Made by a program: the position numbers and the translations under genes. The notes under the pieces are model-generated. The model did not search any database. It was not told the origin of the DNA and was given only the letters and a program-made list of their open reading frames with translations. From IMG/VR virus record IMGVR_UViG_2917413769_000002, positions 1-41,543 of that record: a stretch of DNA of 41,543 nucleotides. One strand, 5' to 3'. Below are positions 27,291-41,543 of the stretch, one piece after another. Position 1 is the stretch's first letter; the number at the start of each line of letters is the position of its first letter. Source of the DNA: a virus. Lineage: Duplodnaviria > Heunggongvirae > Uroviricota > Caudoviricetes.

Positions 27291-27711
27291 CTAAAAAATG
27301 CGGACCGCACTAGCACTTTTTTGATTATTTTGAATGCTCACTACGGCGTCCATTTCCAGGCGAACATCCAGCATCGACAGGCAGCCTTCAATGAATCCCT
27401 CGGCAAGCAGCATCTCTATGCGTATCTGCTTTTCGCTTTTCTTCCTGCGCTTCGCCATCTGCCGTTTTGAATACCGGAGAATATAATGCCCGACCAGCAA
27501 GTGATAATCGTATGGGCATTTTTTTTATCAGGCGTGCCATGCAGCCCTCGATAATCAGCCCATCGTCGTCGGTACACATGATCCGCGTTTTGCTGGTTTG
27601 CGGAAGCAGCCCCTTAAAACCAGCAGCGATGGAAGAATAATCAATATTGCATGAATCGCTTGCCGCCCACGCGCCCCACATATCAAGAACCTTTTGCATA
27701 TCACGCATCAT
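27291..27711 (-). CDS. late antiterminator Q (QuuD-type), interrupted by an apparent frameshift (ORFs 27388-27711 and 27291-27500)
   Basis: N-terminal ORF MMRDMQKVLDMWGAWAA...IDYSSIAAGFKGLLP...CTDDDGL is Q-like as recalled; C-terminal continuation ...SMLDVRLEMD... in another frame; T8 run at 27519-27526 is the most likely shift site. Confidence 0.6.
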
Positions 27712-35484: not shown

Positions 35485-35667
35485 ATGAGTACAGACTTCA
35501 TGACAGAACAAGAGGTTTCTGAGTTGCTTCAGAAAAAAAGAACAGCTTTATATAACCTCAGAAAAAAACATGGTTTCCCTGAGCCAGTCCTCACCCACCC
35601 AGCGAGATATAGCCGCAAAGCCGTGGAAAACTGGATCAGTGCAGGCGGAGTTAACCGAGCTGTTTAA
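35485..35667 (+). CDS. AlpA / excisionase-family HTH protein
   Basis: 60-aa ORF; position next to and convergent with the integrase. Confidence 0.6.
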   Translation: MSTDFMTEQEVSELLQKKRTALYNLRKKHGFPEPVLTHPARYSRKAVENWISAGGVNRAV

Positions 35668-36820
35668 CGTGCCAGAGGATTTTATCAGCATACAGCTCGT
35701 AAGCTGCTTTCTGCTCAGGTAACCAGTCGTGTTTATTATACACGGCCATCACCCCGCCAAGCTCGTGCCCCAGCATCTTTTCGGTGACATGGGGCATCAC
35801 CCCTTCTGCAGATAAATTCGTTACCAACGAACGGCGGAAATCATGCGTTCGCCACTCCGGGATATCGATTTTACCTCTCAATTTTTTCATATAGAGATTT
35901 GACGACGAACGGTCTATAGCGCGGTCAAGCGTCTGTCCGGGAAACAGCACAGAGTTCCCACTATTCAGCAGCCGCTCAACATAGGGTTTAACCTGGTCAA
36001 AGATAGGCCGTCGGATGACATTTCCCATCTTGGAATGCTCAGATGGAGTCGTCCAGATCAGATCATCCATATTGAACTCATCCGGCGTTGAAAGCCGCAG
36101 CTCAGATAAGCGTGGTCCCCAGAGCAATAGCAGCTGGTGCAGCACTTTATTGGAGGAGACGATCTTGTTATTTTCCAGTGCCAGCCAAACCTTCGCCAGT
36201 TCGGTGTATGTTAACACCCGCTCACCGACGTCAGGCTTCTTGCCTATGGTTTTCACACTTAACTTCATCAGCTCGCATGACGGAACCAACTGCCGGCTGA
36301 TGCACCAGTTAATTACCGAGCGTAGCTGTAACAGCAGAACGCGCGCTTTCTTTTTGTTCAGGCTTTCCTGTTTATCGAAAAAACGCACCCATGCAGAAAC
36401 CGGTACATTCGCCACTGGCGCATCTTCAAATTGTGTGTACATCGTGTTGTACACGACCGATTTATAAAGCGTCTGGGTGTTGGGCTTCAGACCGGATGCA
36501 TACTTATCCCACCACTGATCAAGGCATTCTTTGAGTGTCAGCTCGCCATCTTCACGGGCAAAATAATTTTTGGGGTTCACACCCTTCGTGTACAATGCGC
36601 GCATCTCACCGACGATAACCCTAGCGTCCTTGAGGGATGTCGAAGGATAGCGGCCAACCGTCAGGCGCACTGGTTTACCGTTCCATCGATAACGATACTG
36701 AAAAGTGATTGTGCCAGTTGGCGTGATCCGGGCACTGAGACCATCACCATCGGTGATTTCTGGTGCCGCAGAATACGGTTTACCGTTGATGCTCCGTAGT
36801 TTAGTGTCGCTGAGTGCCAA
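35651..36820 (-). CDS. int: P4-type tyrosine integrase
   Basis: C-terminal catalytic region ...WRTHDFRRS...GHELGGVMAVYNKH...; N-terminal ALSDTKLRSI...KPY... block typical of P4-family integrases; likely TTG start at 36820 (ORF track extends to 36931). Confidence 0.8.
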   Translation of the reverse strand: MALSDTKLRSINGKPYSAAPEITDGDGLSARITPTGTITFQYRYRWNGKPVRLTVGRYPSTSLKDARVIVGEMRALYTKGVNPKNYFAREDGELTLKECLDQWWDKYASGLKPNTQTLYKSVVYNTMYTQFEDAPVANVPVSAWVRFFDKQESLNKKKARVLLLQLRSVINWCISRQLVPSCELMKLSVKTIGKKPDVGERVLTYTELAKVWLALENNKIVSSNKVLHQLLLLWGPRLSELRLSTPDEFNMDDLIWTTPSEHSKMGNVIRRPIFDQVKPYVERLLNSGNSVLFPGQTLDRAIDRSSSNLYMKKLRGKIDIPEWRTHDFRRSLVTNLSAEGVMPHVTEKMLGHELGGVMAVYNKHDWLPEQKAAYELYADKILWHVKQLG

Positions 36821-37015
36821 TGCGCTATATCCTGTACACAAGGGTTTCAGGCATTCTGTACTCAATCTGTACTCAATGGCAAGTGAACGAACGCAAATAT
36901 CAGCATAAACAAGCTGGTAAATGATGAACAAAGACGCACTTACATCTTGATGTCAAAGCAGTAAAGGCGGTAGAATCAGCATCACGGTGAACAACCAAAA
37001 ACATCGCCGATCAAT

Positions 37016-37090
37016 GTCCCCTTAGTTAAATGGATATAACGAGCCCCTCCTAAGGGCTAATTGCAGGTTCGATTCCTGCAGGGGACACCA
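37016..37090 (+). tRNA. argW: tRNA-Arg (anticodon CCU), argW-like
   Basis: 75 nt: 7-bp acceptor stem GTCCCCT/AGGGGAC, T-arm GCAGG-TTCGATT-CCTGC, anticodon loop CTCCTAA, 3' CCA encoded. Confidence 0.9.
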
Positions 37091-37250
37091 TTTATCAGTT
37101 CGCTCCCATCCGTACCAGTCCGCAAAATCCCCTGAATATCAAGCCTTCCGTATATTCACGGTTCGTCATGGTTCGCGTCAGATCGTTGACAGCCGCACAC
37201 CATGACGGGTAAAAAGTGGATAAAATAATTTACCCACCGGATTTTTACCC

Positions 37251-37802
37251 ATGCTCACCGTTAAGCAGATTGAAGCAGCAAAGCCGAAAGAAAAACCATA
37301 CCGCCTTCTCGATGGTAATGGCCTGTACCTTTATGTTCCTGTATCCGGGAAAAAGGTATGGCAGCTTCGCTACAAGATTGACGGTAAGGAGAAAATCCTG
37401 ACCGTCGGAAAATATCCGCTTATGACTTTGCAAGAGGCAAGGGATAAGGCATGGACCGCGAGGAAAGATATCTCGGTTGGCATAGATCCGGTAAAGGCGA
37501 AAAAGGCTTCGTATAACAACAATTCCTTTAGTGCGATTTACAAGGAATGGTACGAGCATAAGAGGCAAGTATGGTCAGTCGGCTATGCGACTGAACTTGC
37601 CAAAATGTTTGACGACGACATTTTACCTATCATCGGCGGTCTTGAAATTCAGGATATTGAGCCGATGCAACTTCTTGAAGTAATCCGCAGATTTGAAGAT
37701 CGCGGTGCAATGGAGCGAGCCAACCTTACTATATCTCGAATAGCACAAAGCCTTGCAATCCAGTGCAAAGCTTTGTGTGTCTCAGTTTTGTCTTACGCTT
37801 AA
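37251..37802 (+). pseudogene. truncated P4-type (IntS-like) integrase, N-terminal ~180 aa only
   Basis: starts 161 nt downstream of the tRNA 3' end in the same orientation; N-terminal KPYRLLDGNGLYLYV...GKK.W block; ends where AT-rich DNA begins. Confidence 0.7.
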
Positions 37803-37822
37803 ACGTATCTTTTTATTTAGAA

Positions 37823-38849
37823 TTATTTGATGCATTTAATTTTAGATTTTCTTTTCAAAATTAAGCCGCATGGAATCTCAATATATTTATAGCTTAAGTA
37901 TGAAGACAGAAGAATAAGTACTATAATTGGTACAACCATCAATAATTTATCTAACATATAGATATCACATAGCTTATTTATTATACATATAATGATCACA
38001 TGCGAAAGATATGTCGAGTATGACCAATCTCCAAGTTTAGATGCAATTCTTGATATAGTGCTATTGCCAATATTGTTTTCAAGACATAAAGCGGAAACAA
38101 TTAAAGCAGCGCAAGGGATTCCAATTTGGAGAAGTCTTTTTGATTCATTGCTAAAAAATATACTTATCAGTGATAATACGGATATTGTTAGTGCAGTTTT
38201 AACACCGATATTTCTGAATAGCCCATTATTATAACATATAGCTATTACCCCCCCCCATAACAAACTCAAACAACAGTTCATCATTATAGAAAAGAAATAC
38301 AGTAGACTCATTATTGCCAAGCCATGAAAACAAATTCATTACAACAAGAGGAATTAGAATACAGCAAATTTTTTTGTTGTTTTCAGGGAATAACAGAGAA
38401 ATAAATACGCACGTATAAAATAGCATTTCAAAATTAAGAGTCCACCCAACCGTTAGGGTTGGAATATACCAACCTATCTGTTGATTCATTACCGGAATAA
38501 AAGCAAGGCTTTTTAATACATTATTTAATCCAATCTCAGCAAACGGAATAACTCCGTGAAAATTGTATGATATTACCACTACCAGCAATGTGTAGAACCA
38601 ATATGCAGGAATAATTCTTACCATCCTATTGAGAGCAAATGACGTAGGTGTAATATTATTTTTCGATATTGACTTATAAATAATAAAGCCACTTATGATA
38701 AAAAACATATCGACACCATTGCCAGCCTTAAGTGCAATAGTGTGCATCAATTTGGATGATGCAGACCATTGAAACATGACTTGAGAAATATGATGATAAA
38801 CAACTGCCCAAGCAGCAAGTGCTCTTAAGATTTGTATTGACTTAATCAC
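37823..38849 (-). pseudogene. acyltransferase-3 family membrane protein (O-antigen acetylase-like), split by a frameshift at a G9 tract
   Basis: ORFs 38229-38849 and 37823-38320 overlap at a C9 run (38247-38255, plus strand); G8 would fuse them into a ~350-aa acyltransferase_3-like protein; strongly AT-rich region. Confidence 0.65.
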
Positions 38850-39478
38850 GGATAAATCCTAATGTTTTTTCATGCATTTTATACTATACCGATCGAAAGT
38901 CCAGTTCTCTTTTCCCATATCATACTATTCGCAATATACGGTGTAAAAATATGATAAACATCAACTTCCTTATTAATGTGTTAATAAACCATTTTTGTTA
39001 AATGCTTTCTATGCCCAATAAGAATCAATACTATAAGTTATAGAACCTTTTATTGTGGCATCAACATTGACATCGCTTTTATGTACAGGATCACAATCAG
39101 GGTTGTTAAATTTGTAAAAATCAATGTAATCATTTCCGCGATCGATGGCTCGCCGTAAACACTTGCCACCCAGTTGTCAAACCAAAAGTTATGGAAATAA
39201 CGCCAGATACTTGGTTTGCGGCTTTGTGCGGTTGGTTTCTCATTCTCATTTAACCTGATTGTTCTGCGAATACGTTCAGTCTTATAATAAACTCTATAGT
39301 AACCAAACTTCCATTTTGATGATATTTAACATCCCTAGCTAAAAGTCCAATACCATTTGTCGAATCACCAAATGTTATCGTAATCTCACCATCAATAGAG
39401 CGTCGTTCTCTTAATGACTCTAGTTGCAAGGCATTCTGAACAGATGTAATTCATGCTGCATAGATATTAGCCGAAGTG

Positions 39479-39733
39479 TTATATACAATAGTTGACCCTG
39501 CCAATAGTTAACCCTGCAGCGTCATCTGTACAGCCAATTAGCGGCATTCCCGTGCCAAATTTACCGCCATTTATGACAATATGATTACCTGGGCCATGTA
39601 TGTAGAAGTTCCATGAATATGATTTCCCCCACGAAAGCATTGGATTATTAAAAGTTACGTAATTATTATCTTTAACAGAAACAATCTGATCCCCCCCATC
39701 TTTTGGTATGCATATATACCCAATAAACATCAA
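39479..39733 (-). CDS. hypothetical protein, possibly a gene remnant
   Basis: 84-aa ORF in AT-rich DNA between the acyltransferase gene and the IS630-family remnant. Confidence 0.25.
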   Translation of the reverse strand: MMFIGYICIPKDGGDQIVSVKDNNYVTFNNPMLSWGKSYSWNFYIHGPGNHIVINGGKFGTGMPLIGCTDDAAGLTIGRVNYCI

Positions 39734-39763: not shown

Positions 39764-40700
39764 TTAATTCTGGATGTCAGCCGCTATATCCGGCAGCGTC
39801 TGGTTAAAAAAGACAGATATTGCGTCCCTGAACACTCGCGTACTGCTGAAGTAGCGATTATTCCGCGCATGTTCGTTCATTAATTTCCACATTCTTTCTA
39901 TCGGATTCAGGTTTGGACTGTAAGGGGGAAGGTAATGCAGCCTGATATTTACCACTTCCGCCCAGTCTTTCACTAACTGTGAACGGTGATAACCTGCTCC
40001 ATCCAGAATAACGTGGATTTTCTGGTTATAATCAGGATAAACCTTTCGTATATCATTGAAAAAACGGTATACATTATATTCATTAATGGTTTTATATTCG
40101 CAGATTAGCGGTGACGTCAGTGCTTTCAGATTTAGCGCCCCATGATATTCAGGCGTGTGCGGCTGCCTGTTGTTTTTACTGCTTTTTTCTGGCCTTTGCG
40201 TATCCAGCCATAGCTGATTTTAGTGGCCTGAGTCGGATGGACTCCATCAATAAAAAGAATCGGTTCATCACCCACAGTTGTTTTCAGTTCCACATAATAT
40301 TCAATGAATTGCCTTTGTTTCTCTTCACAGAATTTATGGGGAACGCCTGACGGTTTTTGTAGGTGAAACCATTACAATGCAGCCACTTATTCATCCCCAG
40401 AATGCTGAAAATGATGTTCCATGTCCGGGTGACAAACGCAATAACATCGCGGGTACGGTGAAATAAATTATCGGATAACTGACTGATAAAAAGGGCCATT
40501 TGTTCAGCTCTGAGTTTGCGGCCTGAGCCGCCGTTTTCGGCCTTCAGTTTCCCTTTATTCAGGAATTCACTGATATGGTGATCAATCGTTGTCTAATGTA
40601 GGCGTAAAGCCTGAGCAATCATGGCAGAACTCCAGCCTTCGGAGGCCAGAAGAATAGCTTAAATACGAGCTCTGACTCGCCCGTCACGGCTGGAATCATG
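39764..40700 (-). mobile_element. IS630-family transposase gene, frameshifted
   Basis: C-terminal ORF has the DDE region ...HVILDGAGYH... and the family signature YLPPYSPNLNPIE; upstream parts in other frames (…YGWIRKG…NIMG / ALNL…); two frame breaks at short homopolymers (~40138-40141 and ~40354-40358); element ends not defined. Confidence 0.65.
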
Positions 40701-41054
40701 AAGGCGTTCAAGTTCAGCTTTTTGTTGCTCAGTGATGAATATTTTCATGTTGGACAGCATGATCTCCGATTGCTGAAAAATCAATCAGTTCCAATGATCA
40801 CGGGTATAAAATCGTTAATTGTATTATCGTTACCTGACTGCAAATGCATTCCTACCCCCATTCCAATATCAGTTGCAGATGGTAACTCATAGGCACAACT
40901 GGTCATGGTGAGGTCATTACAGTTATTGATATAGTAGGCCGTTCTGACAGTACCATCACTTGTACAACAAACCATGTTCGAATACTGACCGTTCTCTATC
41001 CGGAAAGCTCCTGGCAAGACTTAAGCATCGTTTACCCGTCCAGAGTTGAAGTGG

Positions 41055-41543
<489 letters not shown>

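What the first reader, a model, noticed from the sequence alone, without database searches (positions are those of the whole stretch)
37251..38849. argW island remnant: truncated integrase and AT-rich acyltransferase gene with a G9 tract
Downstream of the tRNA, an IntS-like integrase is cut off after ~180 aa where AT-rich foreign DNA begins. The next gene is an acyltransferase-3 family membrane protein (O-antigen acetylase-like) split into two ORFs exactly at a 9-nt G tract (38247-38255); G8 would give one intact ~350-aa protein. Homopolymeric G tracts in surface-modification genes are classic slipped-strand phase-variation switches, so this may be an ON/OFF contingency locus for O-antigen acetylation. 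Alternatively it is an assembly error or plain decay.
Basis: partly seen in the sequence, partly recalled or inferred. Interest (0 to 1): 0.55.

Follow-up and report, generated by a model that had tools for sequence, protein, structure and literature searches.

The report
Sequencing-error frameshift in an acyltransferase gene
The split acyltransferase gene beside the arginine tRNA is almost certainly an Ion Torrent miscount of a run of eight G's as nine, not a biological on/off switch; another assembly of the same strain encodes the intact 341-residue protein.

Summary
argW is at 37016-37090. A truncated Sf6/IntS-type integrase ORF follows at 37251-37802. G8 gives one 341-aa protein.

The window is 100% identical to PDIL01000012.1, Escherichia sp. 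E1130, cryptic clade II. That genome was sequenced on Ion Torrent (PMC6639607). A second NCBI assembly of the same strain encodes exactly the G8 protein (TLI72932.1). Strain E2562 shows the same pattern.

In the same island and flanks, the Ion Torrent assemblies carry further 1-nt homopolymer errors. These break the core gene yfdC (A9 vs A8), an FAD oxidoreductase (A9 and T9 vs A8 and T8) and a GT2 gene. Correcting only run lengths reproduces exactly the proteins of the second assemblies.

All G9 calls come from the Ion Torrent series and all G8 calls come from other series. dN/dS is about 0.09 on both sides of the tract. The frameshift is therefore best explained as an artefact. Phase variation is unsupported and interest is low.

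The parts
37016..37090 (+). tRNA-Arg(CCT), argW; attachment site of Sf6/HK620/CPS-53-type elements
   Evidence: ARAGORN. Window 37076-37724 aligns at 95.8% to the Sf6 attP core plus the 5' part of int.
37251..37802 (+). Truncated Sf6/IntS-type tyrosine integrase remnant: 183-aa ORF, homologous part is aa 1-158, catalytic domain deleted
   Evidence: Pfam Arm-DNA-bind_3 plus Phage_int_M only. 94% identity to Sf6 Int aa 1-158 of 385. DNA similarity to Sf6 ends at 37724. The same junction is present in E3356, E2562 and the E. coli carriers.
37823..38849 (-). AT3-family (Acyl_transf_3) membrane acyltransferase gene; one gene, 341 aa when the tract is G8; GTG start at 38849, stop at 37823-37825
   Evidence: The two halves hit the N- and C-terminal parts of PF01757. 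The repaired or second-assembly protein P0122 hits PF01757 over residues 3-320 at 86 bits. Intact homologues of 62-96% identity span the junction. dN/dS is 0.095 against the E. coli allele.
38248..38256 (-). G9 homopolymer as called (C9 on + strand); most likely G8 in the organism, miscounted by Ion Torrent
   Evidence: G9 is found only in Ion Torrent assemblies PDIL/PDIJ/PDIE and a Logan reassembly of the E2562 reads. The exact G8 product exists as TLI72932.1 from the same strain, E1130.
38369..38375 (-). A7 run in the same gene (T7 on + strand); called A6 in the Ion Torrent assembly of strain E2586, giving a 164-aa fragment there
   Evidence: P0129 ends ...PEKNKKFAVF. Coordinates.
37844..37852 (-). 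Site of a 17-nt deletion relative to the E. coli 350-aa alleles. It shortens and changes the C-terminal tail (KRKSKIKCIK) and is shared by all clade II 341-aa alleles
   Evidence: Alignment; indel list; protein tails.
39691..39697 (.). Second G/C run (C7 in the window) whose length differs among the Ion Torrent assemblies (7 vs 8); lies in degenerate, non-coding-looking DNA
39764..41543 (-). IS remnants: IS630-family transposase fragments about 39764-40500 and an IS3-family integrase-core fragment at 41055-41543. They separate the acyltransferase from the rest of the glycan-modification island, which lies beyond the window end
   Evidence: ORF translations. HTH_33/DDE_3 Pfam marks on the equivalent genes of L001-L006.

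Best explanation
The frameshift is a sequencing artefact. The window comes from the Ion Torrent draft assembly of Escherichia sp. E1130 (cryptic clade II, deposited as 'unclassified Escherichia'). In the organism the tract is most likely G8, and the gene is an intact 341-residue AT3-family membrane acyltransferase under purifying selection. The Ion Torrent data systematically counted several 8-nt homopolymers in this region as 9, which splits the gene on paper. The real features around it are ordinary. There is an argW-linked remnant of an Sf6/CPS-53-type element whose integrase lost its catalytic half. It is fused to AT-rich DNA carrying the acyltransferase. IS fragments follow and, beyond the window, a small glycan-modification cluster: an FAD oxidoreductase, an ArnC/GtrB-like GT2, an epimerase, a sugar-isomerase-like TIM barrel, an SMR/ArnE-F-like small membrane protein and another GT2. 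The acyltransferase most plausibly O-acylates a surface polysaccharide; that function is inferred from family and context, not shown.
For: (1) Source and platform. The window is 100% identical over 11,315 nt to PDIL01000012.1. PDIL is strain E1130. All 16 strains of that project were sequenced as Ion Torrent single-end reads (PMC6639607).
(2) Same strain, other assembly. The exact conceptual G8 product is in the database as TLI72932.1 [Escherichia sp. E1130]. Its accession neighbours TLI72931 (integrase) and TLI72934 (GT2) are identical to the window-strain proteins TGC25314 and TGC25316, so it is the same locus. E2562 likewise has G9 in PDIJ01 and G8 in TLI83224.1.
(3) Batch confound. Every frameshifted copy is from the PDIx01 Ion Torrent series: three with G9 and one with A7 called as A6. 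Every intact copy (TLI, RZN, TBR accessions) is from another series.
(4) Other homopolymer errors in the same contigs. 11 of 12 indels between two Ion Torrent assemblies over 16.6 kb are 1-nt run-length differences. One breaks the core gene yfdC at A9 vs A8, and the repaired protein equals TLI83225.1. The GT2 gene is broken at G3->G2 and T7->T8, and the repaired protein equals P0199, which includes TLI83221.1. The FAD oxidoreductase is broken at A9 in all three Ion Torrent assemblies, and also at T9 in E1130; the intact E. coli gene has A8. The repaired E1130 protein (A8, T8) equals TLI72933.1 [E1130], and the repaired E2562 protein equals TLI83222.1. In E1130, therefore, three runs called 9 are 8 in the other assembly.
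(5) Selection. dN/dS against the intact E. coli allele is 0.087 upstream and 0.092 downstream of the tract, so the downstream half has been kept in the G8 frame.
(6) Literature. [quoted passage not shown] Reproducible high-frequency indel errors give frameshifts in assemblies (PMC3623719).
Against: No reads could be inspected. The platform and method of the second (TLI) assemblies are unknown; no paper was found. If they were frameshift-curated rather than resequenced, their G8 would not be independent evidence. Bragg et al. found that long runs are usually under-called, not over-called, so an 8->9 error runs against that general trend. However, yfdC and the oxidoreductase show the same 8->9 direction in these very datasets. 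A different assembler (Logan) on what appear to be the E2562 reads also gives G9. The error would therefore be in the reads, not the assembly.
Confidence: 0.88

Rival explanations
1. Genuine slipped-strand phase variation. The tract really switches between G8 (ON) and G9 (OFF). The cultures used for the Ion Torrent runs happened to be predominantly OFF and those used for the other assemblies ON.
For: A length change at the tract toggles the reading frame: G8 or G11 intact; G7, G9 or G10 truncated. The gene is a surface-glycan-type acyltransferase in a glycan-modification island. G8 is a derived, unusually long G run created by two substitutions in one codon relative to E. coli alleles. Both states occur on each of three protein haplotypes.
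Against: The two states track the sequencing series perfectly: 3 of 3 Ion Torrent copies are G9 and at least 5 of 5 others are G8. Two of these comparisons are the same strain. Neighbouring genes, including the core gene yfdC, show the same +1 discrepancies at their homopolymers, and phase variation cannot explain that. No G7, G10 or G11 products exist in the 15-billion-protein collection. The tract is absent from the other alleles of the gene. No independent metagenome copy was found.
Confidence: 0.07
2. A real, fixed frameshift (gene decay) in E1130, E2562 and E3356. The intact versions in the second assemblies would result from automated or manual frameshift 'correction'.
For: The island is visibly degraded: truncated integrase and IS630/IS3 fragments. 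The three amino-acid polymorphisms within clade II alleles are all non-synonymous. Pipelines for Ion Torrent genomes often include frameshift curation (own knowledge).
Against: dN/dS is about 0.09 on both halves of the gene. Strain E14S1 (RZN accession) and the TBR-accession assembly, which are not known to be re-assemblies of the strains shown here as G9, also encode the G8 protein. The same assemblies break yfdC, a conserved 310-aa core gene, at a homopolymer. That shows the errors lie on the Ion Torrent side.
Confidence: 0.04

Closest known systems
Ion Torrent (and 454) homopolymer-length miscalls producing false frameshifts and pseudogenes in draft genomes
   Same: The platform is documented for this genome. 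The discrepancy is a 1-nt length difference in a run of 8 or more. It recurs at the same sites in several strains' data. It disappears in another assembly of the same strain. It is accompanied by many other run-length indels. This matches published error descriptions.
   Different: The direction (8 called as 9) is the less common one for long runs according to Bragg et al. 2013.
Shigella phage Sf6 int-oac serotype-conversion module integrated at argW (and the related E. coli K-12 CPS-53/KpLE1 intS-gtr remnant)
   Same: The att core and the first 474 nt of int are 95.8% identical to Sf6. An O-antigen-modification-type gene lies directly beyond int, as oac does in Sf6.
   Different: The integrase lacks its catalytic half. 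The acyltransferase is only 22% identical to Sf6 Oac and is on the opposite strand. No phage genes follow; IS fragments and sugar-modification genes do.
AT3-only membrane O-acyltransferases (Pfam PF01757: Sf6 Oac, Rhizobium ExoZ/NodX, Legionella Lag-1, E. coli WecH; AT3-SGNH fusions OafA/OafB)
   Same: Full-length PF01757 match. The N-terminal R...HH, FFxISGF and NRxxR motifs are invariant in the alignment. Size is about 340 aa with no fused SGNH domain. Sources label homologues ExoZ or OafA/YrhL.
   Different: No characterised member is close. The best matches outside Escherichia/Enterobacter are 34-41% identical, and there was no NCBIfam equivalog hit. Substrate and acceptor are unknown.
Homopolymer or short-repeat phase-variable surface-glycan modification genes (for example Campylobacter poly-G capsule/LOS genes, Neisseria meningitidis capsule O-acetyltransferase, Haemophilus influenzae oafA); recalled from own knowledge
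   Same: A G run inside the coding sequence of a glycan acyltransferase, where a 1-nt change toggles the frame.
   Different: No method-independent length variation was found. The tract is not conserved in the family. The host is an Escherichia, a genus for which I know of no documented homopolymer contingency locus of this kind (own knowledge, not checked here).

Membership tests
Sequencing artefact: Ion Torrent homopolymer miscall | The sequence derives from a flow-based platform | tested here: met
   Window = PDIL01000012.1. PDIL = E1130, Ion Torrent single-end 35-400 bp, 50x.
Sequencing artefact: Ion Torrent homopolymer miscall | Another assembly of the same strain disagrees at the run and nowhere else in the gene | tested here: met
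   TLI72932.1 [E1130] is identical to the G8 translation at 341 of 341 residues. TLI83224.1 [E2562] is identical to the repaired L006 product.
Sequencing artefact: Ion Torrent homopolymer miscall | Other run-length discrepancies in neighbouring genes, including conserved genes | tested here: met
   yfdC A9/A8, oxidoreductase A9/A8 and T9/T8, GT2 G2/G3 and T8/T7. Each repaired product exactly matches a second-assembly protein.
Sequencing artefact: Ion Torrent homopolymer miscall | Read or flow-level ambiguity at the site | not testable with these tools
Slipped-strand phase-variable contingency locus | A repeat tract positioned so that length changes switch expression | tested here: met
   G8 and G11 are in frame; G7, G9 and G10 truncate at 200-206 aa.
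Slipped-strand phase-variable contingency locus | Tract length varies within or among populations independently of method | tested here: not met
   Variation is fully confounded with the sequencing series and occurs between assemblies of the same strain. No G7, G10 or G11 products were found. No metagenome copies were found.
Slipped-strand phase-variable contingency locus | The tract is maintained across alleles or lineages | tested here: not met
   The E. coli-type 350-aa alleles (L001-L004) read ATGGGGGTAGTA (G5) at this site. Other homologues have G-V, not G-G, at this position.
Slipped-strand phase-variable contingency locus | Measured reversible switching at high frequency | not testable with these tools
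   Needs colony-level sequencing or reporter assays.
AT3 acyltransferase family (PF01757) | Full-length domain match above the curated threshold | tested here: met
   P0122: 86.1 bits against a cut-off of 31, residues 3-320 on profile positions 2-325 of 326.
AT3 acyltransferase family (PF01757) | Conserved TM1 Arg/His, FFxISG and RxxR motifs (motif definitions from own knowledge of Oac/OafA studies) | tested here: met
   R9, H19, H20, F49-F50, I52-S53-G54-F55 and N74-R75...R78 are invariant in alignment A1.
AT3 acyltransferase family (PF01757) | Demonstrated O-acylation of a defined glycan | not testable with these tools
   No characterised close homologue and no NCBIfam hit.
Sf6-type int-oac serotype-converting module | Sf6/HK620-type integrase and att core at argW | tested here: met
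   95.8% nt identity over 650 nt and 94% aa identity over residues 1-158.
Sf6-type int-oac serotype-converting module | Orthologue of Oac in the Sf6 arrangement, with an intact integrase | tested here: not met
   22% identity to Oac, opposite strand. Catalytic domain of Int absent.

The most novel reading that the evidence does not exclude
The G8 run is real. It arose in the clade II lineage by two substitutions in one codon (GTA to GGG). It could make this surface-glycan acyltransferase a slippage-prone ON/OFF locus in an Escherichia species. The G8/G9 difference between cultures of E1130 and E2562 would then be real switching hidden among sequencing errors.
Probability: 0.06. Interest if true: 0.45.

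Novelty: not a real feature. Interest (0 to 1): 0.05.

Why it matters
Mainly as a caution. A textbook-looking poly-G 'contingency locus' in a surface-modification gene turns out to be a platform artefact. The apparent strongest evidence for switching was that both tract states occur on three different haplotypes. That evidence was produced by the same strains having been deposited twice from different data. Anyone mining these clade II Escherichia assemblies (PDHW-PDIL series) for pseudogenes or phase-variable genes should expect false frameshifts at homopolymers. In this region the clearest cases are at runs of 7 or more, and at least one is at a 3-nt run. The real biology is a degraded Sf6-type argW island carrying an intact AT3 acyltransferase and a small glycan-modification cluster. 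It is an ordinary new member of known kinds.

Tried and rejected
1. A megablast of 37700-38950 against 5,426 complete E. coli genomes found only the short intS stretch and no copy of the acyltransferase. Tract lengths could not be compared there.
It returned only 34-39% relatives (Pseudomonas, Salinicola, Enterobacter) and no close Escherichia locus.
The G8 state is inferred from exact protein identity.
4. A metagenome scan for the tract with variable length gave no match.
5. For a while I read 'three haplotypes, each in both G8 and G9 states' as homoplasy proving a hypermutable tract. I rejected this once one search showed that the G9 and G8 records include the same strains and that G9 is confined to the Ion Torrent series.
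6. I scanned all 184 homopolymers of 5 nt or more in the window for ORF fusions on a 1-nt change. That flagged 14 sites. The two most suspicious were checked. One proved to be a normal gene boundary, portal | Mu-F head protein, annotated as separate genes in E. coli prophages. The other, around 25434, showed no domain split across its two ORFs. So no other frameshift was found inside the window itself. The additional errors lie just beyond its right end and in the sister assemblies.
7. Literature searches for the second assembly series (E2562+E1130; E14S1) found nothing beyond the Ion Torrent announcement.
8. Sf6 Oac orthology was rejected at 22% identity.

Full report
**1. What is in the window**

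ARAGORN finds one tRNA, tRNA-Arg(CCT), at 37016-37090 on the + strand.

A 183-aa ORF follows at 37251-37802 (+).
- It carries the arm-type DNA-binding and central integrase domains but no catalytic domain.
- It is 94% identical to the phage Sf6 integrase over residues 1-158 of 385.
- At DNA level, window 37076-37724 matches the Sf6 attP core plus the first 474 nt of int at 95.8%, and similarity then stops.
- GC drops from about 0.46-0.50 to 0.31-0.33 between about 37750 and 39100.

On the minus strand, ORFs 38849-38229 (206 aa) and 38320-37823 (165 aa) match the N- and C-terminal parts of Pfam Acyl_transf_3.
- They overlap at a homopolymer that is C9 on the + strand at 38248-38256.
- With 8 G's the gene is one 341-aa ORF, and with 11 G's it is 342 aa. 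With 7, 9 or 10 it truncates at 200-206 aa.
- Homologues of 62-96% identity run uninterrupted through the junction, so the two ORFs are one gene.

**2. The tract is not a family feature**

The closest intact alleles are 350 aa and 96% identical. They come from four Logan assemblies, and the same cluster holds E. coli-labelled proteins. They read ATG GGG GTA GTA ATA where the window reads ATG GGG GGG GGT AAT A. A G8 run would therefore be a derived state, made by two substitutions in one codon (GTA to GGG). The window has one further G. The window allele also has a 17-nt deletion near the 3' end that changes the C-terminal tail. All 341-aa alleles share that tail.

**3. A result that first looked like strong support for phase variation**

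Exact-sequence look-ups gave the following.
- The conceptual G8 protein exists in the database (P0122), as do three single-substitution variants (P0126, P0127, P0130), all 341 aa.
- The G9 206-aa fragment (P0121) occurs in three NCBI assemblies plus one Logan assembly.
- After repairing the tract in the G9 loci, each of three protein haplotypes (reference, N234S, I268V) occurs in both a G9 record and a G8 record.

Taken at face value this is homoplasy, meaning recurrent slippage.

**4. Why that result is not valid**

The source is an Ion Torrent assembly.
- The window is 100% identical over 11,315 nt to PDIL01000012.1.
- The genome announcement for that project (PMC6639607) gives PDIL = Escherichia sp. 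E1130, PDIJ = E2562, PDIE = E3356 and PDIH = E2586.
- These are cryptic clade II strains from Hong Kong sediment. All were sequenced as Ion Torrent single-end reads and assembled with MIRA and SPAdes.

The G8 records include the same strains.
- P0122 is annotated from Escherichia sp. E1130 (TLI72932.1) and P0130 from E2562 (TLI83224.1).
- The E1130 integrase and GT2 proteins carry both accession series, in matching order: TGC25314/25316 flank TGC25315 (the 206-aa fragment), and TLI72931/72934 flank TLI72932 (the 341-aa protein).

The Logan G9 contig (SRR6148323) is 100% identical to the E2562 Ion Torrent contig over 3,343 nt. It is very probably the same reads, so it is not independent.

Every frameshifted copy comes from the Ion Torrent series: three with G9, and one with the gene's A7 run called as A6 in E2586. 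Every intact copy comes from another series.

**5. Direct evidence that these assemblies miscount homopolymers, here and in the same direction**

- Over 16.6 kb, the E3356 and E2562 Ion Torrent contigs differ by 12 indels. Eleven of them are 1-nt length differences in homopolymers.
- One of them splits yfdC, a conserved 310-aa core gene, at A9 vs A8. The repaired protein is exactly TLI83225.1, the next accession after the E2562 acyltransferase.
- The island's GT2 gene is broken in E3356 and E2562 at a G3->G2 site, and additionally at T7->T8 in E2562. Repairing only these gives exactly P0199, which includes TLI83221.1.
- The FAD-dependent oxidoreductase lies just beyond the right end of the window. 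It is truncated in all three Ion Torrent assemblies at an A9 run where the intact E. coli gene has A8. In E1130 it is also shifted at a T9 run.
- Repairing E1130 to A8 and T8 gives a 371-aa protein identical to TLI72933.1 [Escherichia sp. E1130]. That is exactly the accession missing between the acyltransferase and the GT2 gene. The repaired E2562 protein equals TLI83222.1.
- In strain E1130, therefore, three runs within about 6 kb are called 9 in the Ion Torrent assembly and 8 in the other assembly.

The published behaviour of the platform agrees.
- Reproducible high-frequency indel errors cause frameshifts in assemblies.
- The same paper notes that long runs are usually under-called, so the direction here is atypical. 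The yfdC and oxidoreductase cases nevertheless show that +1 calls at 8-nt runs do occur in these datasets.

**6. Selection**

I compared the G8-repaired allele with the intact E. coli allele. dN/dS is 0.095 overall, 0.087 upstream of the tract and 0.092 downstream. The downstream half has been conserved in the G8 reading frame. This argues against an old pseudogene.

**7. What is really there**

- argW carries the stump of an Sf6/CPS-53-type element: the att core and the first 158 codons of int.
- The stump is joined to AT-rich DNA carrying an AT3-only acyltransferase on the opposite strand.
- The acyltransferase has a full-length PF01757 match. The R...HH, FFxISGF and NRxxR motifs are invariant in the alignment.
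- It is only 22% identical to Sf6 Oac. It has no close characterised relative and no NCBIfam equivalog.
- IS630- and IS3-family fragments follow.
- In the parent contig beyond the window there are an FAD oxidoreductase, an ArnC/PgfS-like GT2, an epimerase-like protein, a sugar-isomerase-type TIM barrel, an SMR/ArnE-F-like small membrane protein and another GT2.
- This context makes modification of a surface polysaccharide the most plausible role. That is inference, not demonstration.
- The acyltransferase was not found in 5,426 complete E. coli genomes. The database labels its closest relatives as E. coli and unclassified Escherichia. Other genes of the island (the GT2 and the oxidoreductase) also have members labelled E. 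marmotae, E. ruysiae, E. whittamii or Citrobacter freundii.

**8. Verdict**

| Reading | Probability |
|---|---|
| Ion Torrent miscount of a real G8 tract | about 0.88 |
| Genuine phase variation | about 0.07 |
| Genuine fixed pseudogene | about 0.04 |

Doing so gave G8 in every non-Ion-Torrent record. Interest is low. The finding is best filed as not a real feature. It also warns that this assembly series carries false frameshifts at homopolymers.

Noticed in passing
window 1-36931 (integrase ORF 35651-36931, minus strand; called gene 389 aa): A prophage occupies the whole left part of the window: portal, Mu-F-like head protein, terminase, and a tyrosine integrase whose 90% cluster includes Cronobacter sakazakii integrases. 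It abuts the 5' end of argW. In sister strains E3356 and E2562, yfdC lies directly next to argW, and similarity to them stops at 37015, one base before the tRNA. argW in E1130 is therefore flanked by mobile elements on both sides. The left one uses a site at or upstream of the tRNA 5' end, which is not the usual 3'-end arrangement.
   Followed up: partly
L005/L006/L007 (parent contigs), just beyond the window's right end; for example L007:3541-4404 and L006:9900-10850: False frameshifts at homopolymers in neighbouring genes of the Ion Torrent assemblies: FAD oxidoreductase (A9, T9), GT2 (G2, T8) and the core gene yfdC (A9). Each is restored exactly to a deposited protein of a second assembly by changing run lengths only.
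   Followed up: yes
window 38369-38375 (T7 on + strand; A7 in the gene): A second slippage- or error-prone run inside the same acyltransferase gene. The E2586 Ion Torrent assembly calls it A6, giving a 164-aa fragment (P0129). A Logan contig of a different allele shows the same break (P0138/P0140). The sample and platform of that contig are unknown.
   Followed up: partly
window 39691-39697: A C7 run that is 8 long in the E3356 and E2562 assemblies. It lies in degenerate DNA between the acyltransferase and the IS630 fragments. The E. coli versions read GGGGAGGGG there. Probably another miscount.
   Followed up: no
window about 37844-37852: A 17-nt deletion relative to the E. coli 350-aa alleles, in an A-rich repetitive stretch. 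It replaces the tail ...KRKTKIKKNLKLNASNNCK with ...KRKSKIKCIK. It is shared by all clade II alleles, so it is not inactivating.
   Followed up: partly
window 27519-27526: The only other homopolymer of 8 or more in the window (T8), inside a 107-aa prophage ORF. Given the 8->9 and 7->8 miscalls seen nearby, its length should not be trusted either.
   Followed up: no
window 37711-37796: This stretch lies beyond the end of similarity to Sf6 int. It still matches DNA annotated as intS in many E. coli genomes at 85-91%. The remnant may therefore be an internal deletion or a mosaic of two int alleles rather than a simple truncation.
   Followed up: no
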